Assembly (NCBI RefSeq): GCF_003018115.1
Contig: NZ_CP027457.1
DNA: 64,000 nucleotides
DNA from: Escherichia coli
GTDB taxonomy: Bacteria > Pseudomonadota > Gammaproteobacteria > Enterobacterales > Enterobacteriaceae
Strand: one strand, 5' to 3'
Of this stretch, positions 27,901-33,900 are shown in pieces. A program made the position numbers. Numbering within the stretch: the stretch's first letter is position 1; each line of letters starts with the position of its first letter.

Positions 27901-30900
27901 AAAACGATCGTAGCGATTTCGATAACTACACCGAAGGTAACGGTGATGGCTTCGGTTTCTCTGCTACCTATGAATACGAAGGGTTCGGTATCGGTGCAAC
28001 TTATGCGAAATCTGATCGTACCGACACTCAAGTTAATGCAGGGAAAGTTCTTCCTGAAGTATTTGCTTCCGGTAAAAATGCAGAAGTTTGGGCCGCAGGT
28101 CTGAAATATGACGCTAACAACATTTACCTGGCCACTACCTATTCTGAAACCCAGAATATGACTGTATTTGCTGATCACTTCGTTGCTAATAAAGCTCAAA
28201 ACTTCGAAGCTGTTGCACAATATCAGTTCGATTTCGGTCTGCGTCCGTCCGTTGCTTACCTGCAATCTAAAGGTAAGGATCTTGGAGTATGGGGCGATCA
28301 GGACTTAGTCAAATATGTTGATGTAGGTGCAACCTATTACTTCAACAAAAATATGTCTACTTTCGTTGATTACAAAATCAACCTGCTTGACAAAAATGAC
28401 TTCACTAAAGCACTCGGTGTAAGCACTGATGACATCGTTGCTGTAGGTCTGGTTTACCAGTTCTAATCTGATTACGAAAAAGATATGTTGCGGGAGGCTT
28501 TGCCTCCCCAACATATAAGTGGCTCCCTCAAGCCACTTCCTTTAGGAGCACAACCTTGCTTCTAACTATATAAACCTTCTGTTATATATTACCCTTTATT
28601 TTTGGGGGCGTTGCAACGCCCCATTTTTAATAATTTTTAGTAAACAATTGGCATATTAATTAGAGTTATTAACAACGATATCCATCTCTAACCGGATATC
28701 TAATGCCATTAACATCCCTTCAATTATGCCCTCAGCCTTCTGTAACCTTTTCCCGATATAACCATCAGAGCAGCAATGCTTACCTGCCAGTGACATGAAT
28801 GTCATACCGACTACATAATAATCTACTAATAAATCGTGCAAATCGCTGTTGTTCTTTTTCAGACGGGCCATGCACCCGCAAATGATCATCGCGTCATCGT
28901 CACAACATTGCGGGCGAGATTTTACTTTTGAAGGAATTAATCCCTTAAAACCGGCGGCAATGGACGACCAGGTCACATCTTCATGATTATTAGCCGCCCA
29001 CGCTCCCCAACGCTCAAGAACCATCTGAATATCACGCATCAACTTACTCCACAAAAATCAGACCAGAACGCCAATTACAAGCAAAAATCAACAAAACAGT
29101 ATTAGTTGATTGTTATCTCTGACTTCATACTCCTGCTCCTGTCAGGGTTTTGGCGTAATTCTTCAGTATTCGGTAATCGGTCAAAACAGAACCGGGGAAA
29201 CGATATAAGCGCAGACGCCCCCAGCGGTGGCGAAGAAGTTCTGCCATATTAAACTCAAACATCATTCATTCCCCATTTCGGTGATGGTCAGTTCCAGCCT
29301 CCCACCTTTGGTAACAGGCATCTTCACAACGCGGTAATCAACGACCTGAGCATCATCCAGCCAGAAACCTGCTTTAGTGAGTGCGTCAAAAGCGGCTTTT
29401 TGCAGATTATCCAGGTCACGGCGACGGCGATCCGGCATGTGGCACTCAATGCGGATTTTCACAGGCATAGCCAGGCCGATATCCAGCATTGCGTTTTTAA
29501 TGATTCGGGCGACGTTATCGCGGTATGCCTGCCCCTCTGCGCTGACGTGCGTGCGCCCGCGATTATGGCGGTAATAGCGATTATTGCTCGGAGGCCAGGG
29601 TAATGTGATGCTGTAGGTATTCACGCCTTAATAACCCCCTCTTTCAGCCAGATAACCTGTGTTCTCGCCATACCTTCCAGCGCGCATTCTTTTGCATATG
29701 CAGCATCGACAAAATGTGTGCGGCGGTCGATTTCGTCGTGGCAGGCAGAACATGCAATGGTGGCAATCAGGTCTGGCGGTTTGGTACCGGTGCCGCACAA
29801 TCCAGTCAGCCGGATATGTGCCAGTACAGACGTTTCAGGGTTGCCATTACATACGCCAGGGATTCTTACCTGGCATTCCCGACTACGCGCTGCTTTTCTC
29901 AAATCAGCCATGATTCCTCCTTGCTGCCAGTCGCAACCATTTTTTATCAACCAGGCTGGCGGTATATCCGAGCAGTGTTGGTATTTCGGAAGGCTTCAGC
30001 TCCGGTTTACGCTTACGACGATTTGGTACTCTGTAGATGTGTCCGTTCATGACACGAATAAGCGGTGTAGCCATTACGCCTCCTGTTTGTCGCGGAGCTG
30101 CTGGAACTCGCAGCTCTGCGGAATAGTCAGGTGGCAGCCAATATTCATCGCCCAGGCTTCAACCTTACACAGGAAGACATACATCTCTCCGGTATCAAGA
30201 TCGGAGGTATGGCGTAACGACTGGATAGTGGTGATATCACCGGTTACGACATCAACCAGGTCTTTGGTTTCATAACCGAGATATGTGTGTTTGAGAGCAT
30301 CTTTTACCCAAGCTGGAGTGGCGAACGTTTTACCCTTGCTGATGAGGTATTCACTGATTTCGCTGTACCACATGTGGCTGAGTGCATTCTGGGAAAGACT
30401 GCGTCTCTCGCGCCACGGTTTAAGCACCATGCGAAAGCATTTGCCGTCCTCCAGATAAGGCTGGATCTGCCGACCGATAGCGGTGAAGTTACCGCGATGC
30501 AATTTGATACCATCTTGTGGGAGGTTCACGCTTCACCTCCGCAGAGATCAAACGCTGGATGCAAAATATCGCAGGTGCATTTCTGCATCTGTGAATGGAG
30601 AAGAGAGGTTGGATTGTATGTGCGCATAAACGTCCCCGTTTAGCGCAGAAGTCACCGGAGTTGTTCAGGCTCCAATGGCATGATTATGGCTGGTTGATTA
30701 TTGGAAATCAAATGTGCTGAAAATTAGTCTGCCAAGTCTTCCTCAGTCGCAACTGGGTAATTCCAAATATCAAAAAAAGCTATAGCCTCCTGCCATTTGC
30801 TCCATAAGTTATCAAGTACTTGTGTAGGTTCCGTACTTTTAAAAACAGAATCAGCCGCATCACCGTTATGAACTTCCTCGTACAGTTCCATTATTAGCAG

Positions 30901-33900
30901 ATTAACAAAGTACTGTTTCAACATTAATGCCTGATTACCTTCTTTCTGCTGGCTATCCTGCTTGATGATCTCCATCGCCCGTACTAGGCACCTGATGATA
31001 TCCGCTGCATCATTAACGCTCCATTCAGATCCGCGCTTATCTTTAGCTGATGAATTGGCTCTCTCAGCGCAAGCCTTTAAAGACTCATAAAGGTAAACTC
31101 TATTTTGTAGCTGCAGCGCTTTTTTTGACGTGTACCAACTTGCAAGCGCCGACCCCGCTGCGGCTAATGTGCCAAACGCAGAAATACCTGCTGCTATTGC
31201 ACTTAAGTCGGCACTGTCAAAGTTCCACATCATCGTTACACCTTATATAAATACCCCTCAGTAATATCCAATAAGGTATGTGCACAATCAATATAATTTT
31301 ATCCGTATCGGCACATAGCGATTTGAACGCTACTGGTAATGGTATATTTTAGATTATATCGTCCAGTTTACAGCACCCGTATTTTATGAAATGGACTCGC
31401 ATATTACCCAAAAAATGCCAGCACTTCCGTCATCGTAGAATGCTGGCAGTATTTCTAACTAGTGACTTTATTGGAACAGATTCTGACGGAAATATGGTAA
31501 CACTCGACTCCACTTATCATCCAGCCACGGCTGGAATTTTACATGTGCCGTTTCTCTGGCGAGGATTGCTCGCGCTCTGTTGAGTATCTGGGGATATTCT
31601 TGCTCGATAGAAGTAAAGCGGCCGGCTTCGCGGTGCTCCGCAACCTGAAGTAGTGGAGTAACGTTCTGGCAGGCAGTTAACATCACATCACCTGCTCGCC
31701 ATAACCAAGCACGTGCACAAAGTTTGTTATCAGTGAATTGTTTTGTGATTGGGTATTGTTGAACTGCTAGAACGAGAACGCCAGCATCCATTGGCAGTCC
31801 CTATAGTAAAACCATAGCTCAGGACGCTTCGTTCAGGATAGATAATTTTATTGTACTTACCTAACTTTCTTACTATAGCACGGTTGAAAAAGTGATTATT
31901 ACTCAAAAATAAACCTCACCATCAACCATATATTTGAGAGTACTTATCGCCTGCTGGGCGGATATTGTTTTCATTAAAGGATAGTGTTTAAAAACAATGC
32001 CATTCATAAAATAGATATCACAGGTTTTATTATCTGTATTGATTATGATTTTTTCGAATGTTTTATAGGCAAGTGTACGACATAGCTCTCGCCCATTTTT
32101 ACTGGTTAAGTCAATAGCATGAAAATCACCAAGTGAACTCACCGCTTTACTCTTCAAAGTTTTTAATGATACAGAAGCCCTTCGTAATTCCTTATCTAAT
32201 ACTCTGATTTTTTCTGCTATAGCGGTAACTTCAGGCGCAACAGATAATGCAGCAATTAAATTATTAATTTTCATCTGGAGCTCAATAATTTTCAACTCTA
32301 AAGTTTCATTAGCATCTTTCTTGTTTTCAACTGGTTGGATTTTACTACAATTAAAAAGCAACTCATTAATGATATTATAATCAACCAAATCTCTCTTTAT
32401 TGATGGCCTGTCACATCGATGCAGTCTTCTCATCGGACAAACATAATAGCCATGCAAACTTCCAGATACCGCATGAACAATCATGGTATTACCACAAGCC
32501 TCGCACTTCATAACTGTTCGAAGTAGATTTATCAACATAGGATTTTTGCTACTATTGCTAATACCAAAAGGTGCCAACCGAATTTCCTGCACAGCGTAAA
32601 ACAAATCATCTGATATGACTCTGGGATAATAGCCAGCGATTTCACTTATTCCTTTACCTCTTGCACGATATGAAGGTACGCATATACCTATCAGAGCTTT
32701 ATTCGCTAATAATTTTTCAATTACAGAAGGTCCCCATGCACTTTCTTTTCCTGAGAAATTCTTTACAGCATGATCATTTAAATACTTGGCTATTGCATTC
32801 AATGAGCGCCTTTCCATCCTGAGTTTAAAAATTAGCTCAATAGTTTTCACCCTGTCGGGGTCTGGAACAAAAGCCGTTCTTTTGTCATCCAATGAGAGCC
32901 ATCTCGGACAAGACGCCGTCATAATCGTGCCTGACTCCAGTGCATCCTGCCGTTTTTTCTTCCATGATAATTTAACCCGACTTGACTTTATCTCGCTTTC
33001 TTCATTTGCCCTTTGTGCTATAAGTATGGCTTTTATTAATGAATATGGCTCATTCAATGAGTCAATATTATAGACTGTATTATCGCAAAGAGTTATAACA
33101 TCAATACCGTGATTCAAAATCAATTTCAGACGCTCAATCGCTTCACCGACTTTTTCTCTTGAAAGTCTGTCCAGACTTTCAACTAACAATGTAGTCCCTG
33201 GCAATATATAACCATGTTCTATAGCATCTAAAAATTCCGAAAAAGCTCCTGATTGTGCATGCTTTCCATTGAATGCGCTTAACCCCAAATCTTCATACGT
33301 TACGGTATCAAGGTAATAATCACTATTTACCTTTAGCCATTCAGTAATAAGCCTTCTCTGGCGGTTTAATGAATCACCAGACATCTGACCTGGTGATGAA
33401 AATCGCATATATGCTATGGCTTTTTTCATGGTGACACCTGCTAAAGTATGCTTTTATAAACCTTAGTGGTGAGATATTATTTTTGTTTAATTTTTATTTA
33501 AAAAGACAATTAAGGTCACATTATCTTGAATATACAACAATAATCGTATTGCAATTTTCTTACACCATAATCTTGAAAGCACAAAAGAATGAATAAAAAC
33601 TAAAGACATTAACAAAAAGCATAAAACGAGGCCCATATAAATATACGAGCCTCCATATTTTAGTCGTTTAAAAACAAATTATTTTTAATGTGGTGTGCTT
33701 CGTGACAATAAATTAATAACCAACACACCGGCACAAATCAACATCATGCCTATAATGGCTGGCAGGTCCAACCGTTGGCCGAAAAATCCCCATGATAGTA
33801 AGCTAATCAGGACAATACCGACTCCTGACCAGATAGCATAAGCAATCCCTGTAGGAATATAAGCCAGCGTCTGAGCTAATAACCAGAATGATGCACAATA

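What the first reader, a model, noticed from the sequence alone, without database searches (positions are those of the whole stretch)
30724..33429. Variable cargo next to the large serine recombinase ybcK inside the nin region
Relative to lambda (ren directly followed by ninB), about 3.5 kb is inserted here: emrE, a 508-aa large serine recombinase, and two AT-rich ORFs (169 aa with an N-terminal hydrophobic helix; 107 aa with its own hairpin terminator). In the DLP12 arrangement as I recall it, this slot holds ybcL and ybcM instead. Two unrecognised genes in their place suggest an exchangeable cargo site, possibly serviced by the recombinase, of the kind that often holds defence or superinfection-exclusion genes.
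Basis: partly seen in the sequence, partly recalled or inferred. Interest (0 to 1): 0.7.

Follow-up and report, generated by a model that had tools for sequence, protein, structure and literature searches.

The report
Swappable accessory-gene slot in DLP12 prophage
Between the antirepressor gene remnant and ninB of this DLP12-type prophage sits a one-gene slot whose content differs among E. coli strains (known anti-phage genes in some); here it holds an uncharacterised membrane-anchored protein that arrived by ordinary homologous recombination, with no sign that the neighbouring serine recombinase YbcK was involved.

Summary
The interpretation needs three corrections.

1. The 107-aa ORF is not cargo. 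It is the C-terminal 103 residues of a 249-aa Bro-N/P22_AR_C antirepressor (Rha). It was truncated at 31778/31779 and travels with emrE-ylcJ-ybcK.

2. The exchangeable unit is only about 30713-31467, that is, ORF169 plus its 234-bp spacer. In other strains this slot holds BstA, a HEPN pair, unknown genes, an esterase, ybcL-ybcM, or nothing.

3. YbcK shows no link to the exchange.
- The ORF169 cassette is in 180 of 5426 E. coli genomes, and only 50 have it beside ybcK.
- ybcK-less phages carry it in the same position.
- The left boundary is fixed at a palindrome/promoter before ylcH-ninB, but the right boundaries are staggered over 450 bp.
- No repeat pairs flank the cargo.
- Informative sites place a crossover inside rha (31689-31766).

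ORF169 (phrog_1779) is under purifying selection. It is all-helical with an N-terminal anchor and a conserved acidic C-terminus, and it matches no Pfam, PADLOC or informative fold. A role in phage conflict is inferred from position only.

Verdict: a new member of a known kind, of moderate interest.

The parts
30074..30529 (-). ninB/ybcN (Orf-family recombination mediator). It is the conserved left flank of the slot.
   Evidence: ORF. RefSeq names it in near-identical genomes. It is 94-98% identical across all alleles.
30526..30627 (-). ylcH-like 33-codon ORF (orf33 of phage 82), overlapping the ninB start.
   Evidence: Translation. Annotated in K-12 and phage 82. Alignment A3.
30628..30712 (-). 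Conserved leader in front of ylcH-ninB. It contains the palindrome TTGATT-N6-AATCAA (30694-30711), which is a putative -35. It also contains CATAAT (30683-30688) as a putative -10, and an inverted repeat at 30653-30677. The left boundary of the variable cassette lies right after it, at 30711-30715.
   Evidence: Promoter-like hit 30711..30683. The phage 82 record annotates -35, -10 and a 'possible regulator-binding site' here. The palindrome is conserved in nine loci with a variable spacer, and there is only one perfect copy in the window.
30713..31467 (-). The exchangeable cassette: ORF169 CDS (30724-31233), a Shine-Dalgarno AAGGTG 5 nt before the ATG, and a 234-bp AT-rich upstream spacer (31234-31467).
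   Evidence: Boundaries come from BLAST against 11 other loci. The cassette alone is found in 180 of 5426 E. coli genomes.
30724..31233 (-). ORF169, an uncharacterised family (phrog_1779). Predicted N-terminal membrane anchor (residues 11-34), a helical domain predicted to be cytoplasmic, and a conserved acidic C-terminal tail.
31410..31448 (-). Intrinsic-terminator-like hairpin (31416-31448) plus a U6 tract (31410-31415), directly after the rha/ORF107 stop.
   Evidence: RNA fold -19.4 kcal/mol, z = -2.96. It is also present after the full-length rha in PhiR5_1 and PhiR26_1.
31468..31791 (-). ORF107, the truncated antirepressor (delta-rha). It keeps the P22_AR_C domain only, and the Bro-N domain is lost. 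The first 4 codons come from the junction sequence.
   Evidence: 83% identical to residues 147-249 of the 249-aa Rha of PhiR5_1. Pfam on the full-length protein gives Bro-N 52-147 and P22_AR_C 159-227. PHROG hits to anti-repressor Ant. The same truncated N-terminus occurs in four other loci.
31689..31766 (.). Interval that contains the homologous crossover joining the ybcK-linked truncated rha to the rha 3' end linked to ORF169.
   Evidence: Informative-site scan. The window follows the truncated type down to 31766, then the full-rha/ORF169 type at nearly every informative site from 31689 onward (on alignment A4).
31778..31779 (.). Truncation junction of rha. Homology to full-length rha phages ends here.
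31779..31902 (.). Spacer between ybcK and delta-rha, always linked to ybcK. It holds a 9-bp inverted repeat CTATAGTAA (31870-31878 and 31801-31809). Homology to the K-12 allele starts at 31864 and to the O157 allele at 31837.
   Evidence: Sequence. Boundaries. Found in 822 genomes, and in every locus inspected it lies beside ybcK.
31903..33429 (-). ybcK, a large serine recombinase of 508 aa, apparently intact (motif Y-M-R-F-S-S-P-G-Q near the N-terminus).
   Evidence: Pfam Resolvase 4-161, Recombinase 191-284, Zn_ribbon_recom 302-357. phrog_95 integrase. 97-98.6% identical in 12 coliphage records, and the next phage relatives are below 33% identity.
33487..33636 (-). ylcJ-like 49-codon ORF.
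   Evidence: Annotated as ylcJ in K-12 and other strains.
33685..34017 (-). emrE (SMR efflux transporter, 110 aa).
   Evidence: Translation. RefSeq names.
34085..34387 (-). ren, the conserved right flank. Homology to ybcK-less phages resumes at 34112-34121, inside the ren 3' end.

Best explanation
This stretch of the nin region in a DLP12-type lambdoid prophage contains two adjacent accessory-gene slots.

Slot A (ren to rha) holds the fixed block emrE-ylcJ-ybcK. Its acquisition removed the Bro-N half of the antirepressor gene rha and left ORF107 as a remnant.

Slot B lies between the rha stop/terminator and the palindrome/promoter in front of ylcH-ninB. It is the truly exchangeable position, and here it holds ORF169.

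Cargo is swapped by homologous recombination in the conserved flanks between co-resident or infecting lambdoid phages. The flanks are the rha 3' end on one side and the ylcH-ninB leader on the other. Phage Red/Orf/Rap and host RecA would drive this; YbcK is not needed. Occasional illegitimate deletions produce the staggered right-hand ends.

Shown: the anatomy, the allele series, independence from ybcK, and the crossover inside rha.

Inferred: ORF169 is a non-enzymatic inner-membrane-anchored protein with a cytoplasmic helical domain. It probably acts in phage-phage or phage-host conflict. My estimates are about 0.35 for superinfection exclusion or abortive infection and about 0.25 for a lytic-phase counter-defence or host-takeover role. 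The confidence given applies to the structural and evolutionary part, not to the function of ORF169.
For: Allele series with common flanks:
- BLAST boundaries are at 30711-30715 on the left, and at 31417, 31475, 31486, 31622, 31778, 31837 and 31864 on the right.
- Annotated alternatives are ybcL-ybcM and an esterase.
- BstA and a HEPN protein with a 133-aa partner also occur.
- The remaining alleles are a 260-aa unknown, a 118-aa unknown and an empty slot in O157:H7.

Independence from ybcK:
- ORF169 lies between full-length rha and ylcH-ninB in PhiR5_1, PhiR26_1 and strain 3347558.
- 180 genomes carry the cassette, and 50 have it beside ybcK.
- Homologues at 57-64% identity lie immediately upstream of ninB in other prophages.

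Recombination mechanism:
- The crossover is at 31689-31766.
- Lambda and phi80 exchange DNA with DLP12 through flanking homology, including the nin region, and this depends on Red-beta/RecA (PMC3945230).
- In ybcK-less loci a 98-138-bp copy of the ylcH leader lies upstream of rha, so direct repeats flank rha plus cargo.

ORF107 is a remnant.

ORF169 is a real gene:
- Synonymous sites are saturated against dN 0.25-0.33 to its 57-64% identical homologues.
- There are 22 representative clusters, with conserved small residues in the anchor and a conserved T-x-[ED]-D-L-x-D C-terminus.
- The AlphaFold2 model is all-helical, with pLDDT 75-93 over residues 45-155.
Against: - No function is demonstrated for ORF169. 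It has no PADLOC, Pfam or NCBIfam hit and no informative structural neighbour.
- No consensus sigma-70 promoter was detected in its upstream spacer, so expression in the lysogen is unproven.
- Family members are always co-oriented with early lytic operons. That fits a lytic-phase role as well as a defence role.
- The N-terminal segment is only borderline hydrophobic (1.59).
- The sharp left boundary could reflect a recombination site of unknown kind, and not only selection for the promoter.
- Absence of detectable repeats does not prove that YbcK is inactive, because att sites of large serine recombinases need share little sequence.
- Allele frequencies come from a 60-row spread sample, not a full census.
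Confidence: 0.75

Rival explanations
1. YbcK is the enzyme that loads, unloads or inverts the cargo next to it, as in a recombinase-serviced cassette site.
For: - YbcK has the complete large-serine-recombinase domain set and an intact-looking catalytic motif.
- It is kept intact at 97-98.6% identity in viable phages.
- The variable DNA begins 39-420 bp past its stop codon.
- A 9-bp inverted repeat lies in the ybcK-rha spacer.
Against: - The same cassette occupies the same slot without ybcK (180 versus 50 genomes).
- Right boundaries are staggered.
- No repeated or att-like pair flanks the cargo or the block.
- No orientation polymorphism appeared in 50 full-length matches or in the spread sample.
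- A crossover inside rha explains this allele.
- The left-boundary palindrome is also present in ybcK-less loci.
- No published YbcK activity was found in the library searched.
Confidence: 0.05
2. emrE-ylcJ-ybcK is itself a small mobile element that once integrated into rha with YbcK as its integrase. It is now fixed and inherited passively.
For: - The block is compositionally foreign (26.7-40.5% GC against 50.9%).
- It has constant ends in all loci examined, about 31864 to 34111.
- It interrupts rha, and it carries a recombinase gene at one end.
Against: - Conservative serine-recombinase integration would leave the rha N-terminal half on the other side of the element. That half is absent from the window.
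- Only 67 bp separate emrE from ren.
- No empty site or unlinked copy of the junction sequence was found.
- The block was never seen elsewhere than next to ren in the loci inspected.
Confidence: 0.12
3. ORF169 is not a defence gene. It is an early lytic-cycle accessory protein, for counter-defence, host takeover or replication/membrane organisation, transcribed from pR by antitermination through the rha terminator.
For: - Every family member examined is co-oriented with, and embedded in, an early operon among small early genes. Gaps to the upstream ORF are often only 40-60 bp.
- No consensus promoter lies upstream and no terminator lies downstream in the window.
- There is no PADLOC match.
Against: - In this locus the gene follows a terminator and a 234-bp AT-rich spacer.
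- The slot's other occupants include BstA and a HEPN pair.
- The gene is retained in defective DLP12-type prophages that no longer grow lytically.
Confidence: 0.25
4. ORF107 is not a decaying remnant. It is a functional stand-alone P22_AR_C protein, for example a dominant-negative modulator of antirepressors of co-resident phages.
For: - The ORF is open with the same start in five diverged loci.
- dN/dS is 0.2-0.4, not 1.
- A plausible weak Shine-Dalgarno (AGGGA) precedes the ATG.
- It has its own PHROG, phrog_7640.
Against: - It is further truncated in the esterase allele (boundary 31622). Only 39 bp remain in O157:H7, and it is absent in K-12.
- dN/dS between truncated copies is higher than between full-length copies (0.38-0.40 against 0.11).
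- Recombination with full-length copies can keep it open without selection.
Confidence: 0.2

Closest known systems
Mosaic nin-region modules and 'morons' of lambdoid phages (concept from Juhala/Hendrix et al. 2000, recalled from my own knowledge; experimental exchange with DLP12 in PMC3945230)
   Same: A variable gene sits between conserved early genes, with sharp transitions from 95-98% identity to no similarity at gene borders. It deviates mildly in composition and is present or absent between otherwise similar phages. Exchange goes through flanking homology.
   Different: The classical moron has its own promoter and terminator. Here no consensus promoter or downstream terminator was found. 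In the literature I could search, this particular slot (rha terminator to ylcH leader) is not described as a hotspot.
P2/P4 prophage defence hotspots (Rousset et al. 2022, PMC9122126; Vassallo et al. 2022 preprint)
   Same: Fixed conserved flanks with many alternative cargos, some of them validated defence systems and most hypothetical.
   Different: The phage family and position differ (delayed-early nin operon). Cargo is mostly co-oriented with the lytic transcript. Only BstA, and weakly the HEPN protein, among the alleles seen are recognised defence proteins. Non-defence cargo (ybcL-ybcM, esterase) is common.
K-12 DLP12 arrangement ybcK-ybcL-ybcM-ylcH-ybcN
   Same: The flanks are the same: homology runs from 31864 rightwards and up to 30712 on the left, at 96-97% identity.
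   Different: K-12 lacks the rha remnant and ORF169. Its cargo is a periplasmic Raf-kinase-inhibitor-like protein plus an AraC regulator.
Recombinase-serviced cassette systems (integron attC cassettes; large-serine-recombinase elements such as SCCmec Ccr or Tn4451 TnpX; all recalled from my own knowledge)
   Same: A site-specific recombinase gene lies next to variable DNA.
   Different: There are no repeated recombination sites, cargo is not restricted to recombinase-bearing loci, and boundaries are staggered.
Small membrane-anchored superinfection-exclusion proteins of temperate phages (P22 SieA, HK97 gp15, T4 Imm; recalled from my own knowledge)
   Same: A single small gene in an accessory position, with an N-terminal membrane anchor and no enzymatic motif.
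   Different: No sequence or fold similarity was detected. ORF169's activity is untested, and the bulk of the protein is predicted to be cytoplasmic.
BstA abortive-infection protein (Owen et al. 2021, PMC8585504)
   Same: It occupies exactly the same slot in strain A357, as a full-length PADLOC match.
   Different: It is unrelated in sequence to ORF169. BstA is described as lying downstream of the cI repressor, not in the nin region.

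Membership tests
Large serine recombinase (YbcK) | N-terminal resolvase catalytic domain with the nucleophilic serine motif | tested here: met
   Pfam Resolvase residues 4-161, E 2.3e-18. The sequence Y-M-R-F-S-S-P-G-Q is at residues 7-15.
Large serine recombinase (YbcK) | Recombinase domain plus zinc-ribbon domain C-terminal to the catalytic domain | tested here: met
   PF07508 at 191-284 and PF13408 at 302-357.
Large serine recombinase (YbcK) | Identifiable cognate att or recombination sites, and demonstrated recombination | tested here: inconclusive
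   No repeat pair was found around the gene, the block or the cargo. Activity cannot be tested in silico, and no report was found.
Recombinase-serviced cassette site | Repeated recombination sites flanking each cassette | tested here: not met
   The window has a single copy of the boundary palindrome. Nothing of 12 nt or more flanks the cassette in the repeat finder, and BLAST self-comparison is negative.
Recombinase-serviced cassette site | Cassette boundaries fixed on both sides | tested here: not met
   The left boundary is fixed at 30711-30715. The right boundary varies over 31417-31864.
Recombinase-serviced cassette site | Cargo variation depends on presence of the recombinase | tested here: not met
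   The same cassette and other cargos occur in the slot in ybcK-less phages and prophages. The counts are 180 genomes against 50.
Moron (autonomous accessory transcription unit in a prophage) | Own promoter upstream and terminator downstream | tested here: inconclusive
   No consensus sigma-70 site was found in 31234-31467, and there is no terminator after the ORF169 stop. The upstream hairpin belongs to rha. Weak or non-sigma-70 promoters are not excluded.
Moron (autonomous accessory transcription unit in a prophage) | Present or absent between otherwise near-identical phages, with deviating composition | tested here: met
   GC is 43.9% for the gene and 37.2% for the spacer, against 50.9% for the window.
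Rha / P22 Ant-type antirepressor (ORF107) | Bro-N (DNA-binding) N-terminal domain | tested here: not met
   ORF107 aligns only to residues 147-249 of the full protein, and Bro-N is at 52-147.
Rha / P22 Ant-type antirepressor (ORF107) | P22_AR_C C-terminal domain | tested here: met
   PF10548 lies at residues 159-227 of the full-length homologue, which is 83% identical over this part. PHROG anti-repressor hits.
Known anti-phage defence protein (ORF169) | Match to a model of a described or candidate defence protein | tested here: not met
   PADLOC-DB gives no hit at E <= 0.1.
Known anti-phage defence protein (ORF169) | Reduces plating or burst of some phage when expressed | not testable with these tools
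   Needs an experiment.
DUF4760 (label carried by some AFDB relatives of ORF169) | Significant match to the Pfam model | tested here: not met
   No Pfam family matched ORF169 at E <= 10. In the per-member scan of the 17 aligned family members, DUF4760 was not among the families matched at E <= 0.1. The label appears only in descriptions of Foldseek targets.

The most novel reading that the evidence does not exclude
ORF169 (phrog_1779) is a new single-protein, membrane-anchored phage-exclusion or abortive-infection factor. On this reading, the rha-to-ylcH/ninB slot of lambdoid prophages is a defence-gene hotspot comparable to the P2/P4 hotspots. Its unknown occupants (ORF169, the 260-aa, 118-aa and 133-aa proteins) would then be candidates for new defence genes.
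Probability: 0.3. Interest if true: 0.55.

Novelty: new member of a known kind. Interest (0 to 1): 0.35.

Why it matters
Prophage accessory slots have been productive places to find new anti-phage genes. This analysis defines one in DLP12-type lambdoids to the base pair: a fixed left edge at the ylcH-ninB promoter palindrome and a right edge at the rha terminator. BstA and a HEPN pair alternate there with several unknown genes, which gives a short, testable candidate list that includes ORF169. That gene is present in about 3% of complete E. coli genomes, among them O104:H4 outbreak-lineage strains and strain 55989.

The analysis also removes an attractive but unsupported idea, a cassette site run by a serine recombinase. 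It leaves YbcK as an intact, highly conserved large serine recombinase with no known substrate, which is a small open question in its own right.

Tried and rejected
- **Function of ORF169 by homology.** Pfam, NCBIfam and PADLOC gave nothing, and PHROGs gave only an unknown-function family. A PDB profile search gave nothing below E = 0.1.
- **The 'DUF4760' label** on some AFDB relatives could not be reproduced with Pfam. The literature holds only one passing mention.
- **A conserved partner gene next to ORF169 homologues.** Upstream and downstream neighbours are unrelated to each other. The exception is a DNA_pol3_theta homologue, seen in two of the contexts examined.
- **att-like repeats.** The 16-nt inverted repeat 31887-31902 / 33313-33328 is about what chance gives, and its outer arm is not conserved in K-12. 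The boundary palindrome is single-copy.
- **Clean serine-recombinase insertion of emrE-ybcK into rha.** Rejected, because the N-terminal half of rha is nowhere in the window.
- **Inversion polymorphism.** The one 'ybcK only' row of the spread sample is a K-12-type locus with IS2 in ybcM, not an inversion.
- **Literature on YbcK activity or on a ren-ninB defence hotspot.** None was found in the library searched.

Full report
**Context**

The window carries a lambdoid prophage integrated at argU, with tRNA-Arg(tct) at 44935-45011.
- On the minus strand the early-right operon reads cro, cII, O, P, ren (34085-34387) and emrE (33685-34017).
- It continues with a ylcJ-like ORF (33487-33636), ybcK (31903-33429), ORF107 (31468-31791) and ORF169 (30724-31233).
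- It ends with a ylcH-like ORF (30526-30627), ninB/ybcN (30074-30529), then ninE, ybcO, rusA, ylcG and Q.
- Near-identical loci in RefSeq genomes carry the corresponding names.
- The distance from the ren stop to the ninB start is 3555 bp, and K-12 DLP12 has ybcL-ybcM-ylcH between ybcK and ybcN.
- 'AT-rich' applies chiefly to ybcK (36.5% GC) and the spacers. ORF169 is 43.9% GC and ORF107 is 47.8%, against 50.9% for the window.

**ORF107 is a gene remnant, not cargo**

- Phages PhiR5_1 and PhiR26_1 and E. coli strain 3347558 have a full-length 'Rha' gene at this place.
- The 249-aa PhiR5_1 protein has a Bro-N domain (52-147) and a P22_AR_C domain (159-227).
- ORF107 aligns at 83% identity to residues 147-249 only.
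- DNA homology to these phages ends at window 31778, so the first four codons of ORF107 come from unrelated sequence.
- The same truncated start, MDAGVLVLAVQQ, is found next to ybcK in phage Turner and in strains A357, GMF065 and ES7. One old truncation therefore travels with the emrE-ylcJ-ybcK block.
- The remnant is cut back further in the esterase allele (boundary 31622). It is reduced to 39 bp in O157:H7 and is absent from K-12.
- dN/dS is 0.11 between full-length copies, 0.12-0.23 between truncated and full-length copies, and 0.38-0.40 between two of the three informative pairs of truncated copies. This suggests relaxed constraint but does not prove it.
It is the terminator of rha, and it is also present after the full-length gene.

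**The exchangeable unit**

BLAST of window 29001-35000 against eleven other loci gives a left boundary at 30711-30715 in every allele. The right boundary falls at 31417, 31475, 31486, 31622, 31778, 31837 or 31864, depending on the allele. The minimal variable segment is therefore about 30713-31467, that is, ORF169 and its 234-bp upstream spacer.

Other occupants of the same slot are:
- BstA, a full-length PADLOC match at 3.6e-121 (phrog_6287), in strain A357;
- a 260-aa unknown protein in GMF065;
- a 118-aa unknown protein in ES7 and Turner;
- a HEPN protein plus a 133-aa partner behind a full-length rha in GF47;
- an alpha/beta hydrolase on the opposite strand in Perceval, 4A7 and many genomes;
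- ybcL-ybcM;
- nothing, in O157:H7.

A 60-row spread sample of 2976 matching records gives a rough distribution across the alleles. At about 50 records per row:
- this allele takes about one row;
- other cargos behind the rha remnant take about six rows;
- the esterase takes four;
- the empty slot takes six;
- ybcL-ybcM takes eleven.

These proportions are approximate. A second variable slot lies between ren and rha. It holds PD-Lambda-1 in PhiR26_1 and strain 3347558, small ORFs in PhiR5_1, and the emrE-ylcJ-ybcK block here.

**The left boundary**

The left boundary abuts a conserved leader. This leader contains:
- the palindrome TTGATT-N6-AATCAA (30694-30711), whose spacer varies between loci;
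- CATAAT (30683-30688);
- a second inverted repeat (30653-30677);
- ylcH itself.

The phage 82 record annotates these as a putative -35, a putative -10 and a 'possible regulator-binding site' before orf33/orf151. The consensus scan finds the same promoter-like pair. The palindrome is present whether or not the locus has ybcK, and it is the only perfect copy in the window.

**Is YbcK involved?**

YbcK has the complete large-serine-recombinase domain set. It is 97-98.6% identical in twelve coliphage records, with the next phage relatives below 33% identity. Every test of a link to the cargo was negative:
- The ORF169 cassette is in 180 of 5426 complete E. coli genomes, but only 50 have it beside ybcK.
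- In ybcK-less loci the cassette sits in the identical position.
- Homologues at 57-64% identity lie directly upstream of ninB behind unrelated genes.
- Right boundaries are staggered over about 450 bp.
- No direct or inverted repeat pair flanks the cassette or the block.
- No orientation polymorphism appeared in the sampled genomes.
- The N-terminal half of rha is not on the far side of the block, so the block is not a clean conservative insertion.
- The 124 bp downstream of ybcK matches 822 genomes, and it lies beside ybcK in every locus inspected.
- I found no published activity of YbcK. One study deleted it among 16 K-12 recombinases, without effect on an unrelated island.

**How this allele arose**

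I took sites where the two ybcK-linked truncated copies (ES7, Turner) agree with each other and differ from the two full-length ORF169-linked copies (PhiR5_1, PhiR26_1). The window follows the truncated type down to 31766. From 31689 onward it follows the full-length type at nearly every informative site (on the alignment). A homologous crossover inside the shared rha 3' sequence therefore joined a ybcK/delta-rha prophage to an rha-ORF169 phage. The other crossover must lie in the conserved ylcH-ninB side.

This is the mechanism shown experimentally for lambda and phi80 exchanging DNA with DLP12, including its nin region, where exchange depends on Red-beta/RecA (PMC3945230). In ybcK-less loci a 98-138-bp copy of the ylcH leader also lies upstream of rha. 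The rha-plus-cargo unit there is thus bracketed by direct repeats that could delete or exchange it.

**ORF169**

- It belongs to a small family. There are 15 clusters at 90% identity in 5.8 billion proteins, and 22 representatives at 50% identity in 1.84 billion.
- It matches phrog_1779 (unknown function) and nothing in Pfam, NCBIfam or PADLOC.
- Against its 57-64% identical homologues, synonymous sites are saturated while dN is 0.25-0.33. It is therefore a protein-coding gene under purifying selection.
- The AlphaFold2 model (mean pLDDT 71.6; 75-93 over residues 45-155) is all-helical. Its structural neighbours are generic helical repeats or uncharacterised enterobacterial proteins.
- Residues 11-34 form an Ala/Gly/Ser-rich hydrophobic helix with conserved small residues (A26, A29, S32). 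This helix is preceded by an acidic N-terminus and followed by SKK. By the positive-inside rule (established knowledge), the C-terminal domain should be cytoplasmic.
- The conserved positions are mostly hydrophobic core residues, with no catalytic-looking motif. The C-terminus T-x-[ED]-D-L-x-D is invariant among close members.
- All family members examined lie in early operons of temperate phages, co-oriented and without a conserved partner.
- A Shine-Dalgarno AAGGTG precedes the ATG. No consensus promoter was found in the spacer, and no terminator follows the gene.

I therefore infer a membrane-tethered, non-enzymatic binding or oligomerising protein. The company it keeps in the slot (BstA, HEPN) makes a phage-conflict role the best guess. 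I put about 0.35 on exclusion or abortive infection. A lytic-phase counter-defence or host-takeover role is nearly as likely, at about 0.25. None of this is shown.

**Comparison and verdict**

The locus behaves like the known mosaic accessory slots of lambdoid phages and resembles the P2/P4 defence hotspots (PMC9122126). It fails the tests for a recombinase-serviced cassette site. I rate it a new member of a known kind, with interest 0.35. The most novel reading still open is that ORF169 is a new membrane-anchored anti-phage factor and that the slot is a lambdoid defence hotspot (probability about 0.3).

Noticed in passing
L008 (E. coli A357, NZ_CM163381.1) 3153-4082; equivalent to window slot 30713-31467: A full-length BstA homologue (PADLOC 3.6e-121) sits in the nin-region slot between the rha remnant and ylcH-ninB. 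The BstA paper describes the family as conserved downstream of the cI repressor (PMC8585504), so this is a different genomic context for BstA.
   Followed up: partly
L007 (PhiR26_1) 5985-6082 and L012 (strain GF47) 6299-6436, versus window 30550-30687: In ybcK-less loci a second, 88-91% identical copy of the ylcH leader and first ~28 codons lies about 400 bp upstream of rha. Direct repeats therefore bracket the rha-plus-cargo unit. The window lacks this copy.
   Followed up: partly
window 37822-39372 (+): Two AT-rich ORFs (340 aa and 168 aa; about 32% GC at the start) lie directly downstream of the cI-like repressor, in the position of lambda rexAB. They match phrog_3482 and phrog_16807, both of unknown function. 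The 340-aa protein has no PADLOC hit, and the 168-aa one was not scanned. In the related strain UR21/11-869 this position holds a hypothetical protein plus a serine/threonine kinase.
   Followed up: partly
window 31801-31809 and 31870-31878: A perfect 9-bp inverted repeat (CTATAGTAA / TTACTATAG), with arms 60 nt apart, lies in the spacer between the ybcK stop and ORF107. The homology breakpoints of the K-12 allele (31864) and the O157 allele (31837) fall between the arms. Its significance is unknown, and its geometry is not that of a typical serine-recombinase att site.
   Followed up: no
L017 (CP149994.1, GCA_051307055.1) 1031-2931 and 5001-5519: A 31%-identical ORF169 homologue lies in a small integrase-associated island that also carries a reverse transcriptase (RVT_1) plus a SLATT_5 gene pair, which looks like a retron-type defence locus.
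   Followed up: no
L026/L027 4567-4824 and L017 4756-5004: A DNA_pol3_theta (HolE-like) homologue is the immediate neighbour of ORF169 homologues in two of the contexts examined, downstream in one and upstream in the other. This may be coincidence among nin-region accessory genes.
   Followed up: no
L001 (E. coli ML35) 1-6030 and 10480-13477: In ML35 the ren-emrE-ybcK-ORF169 segment is embedded between tail-fibre and baseplate genes of another prophage type, with truncated P and ninB-side genes. The segment survives there as an island inside a rearranged composite prophage.
   Followed up: no
window 31903-33429 (ybcK) across phage records: YbcK is nearly invariant (97-98.6% identity) in twelve lambdoid coliphage records and has no phage relatives between about 33% and 97% identity. 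It is an isolated, recently spread lineage whose recombination substrate is unknown.
   Followed up: partly
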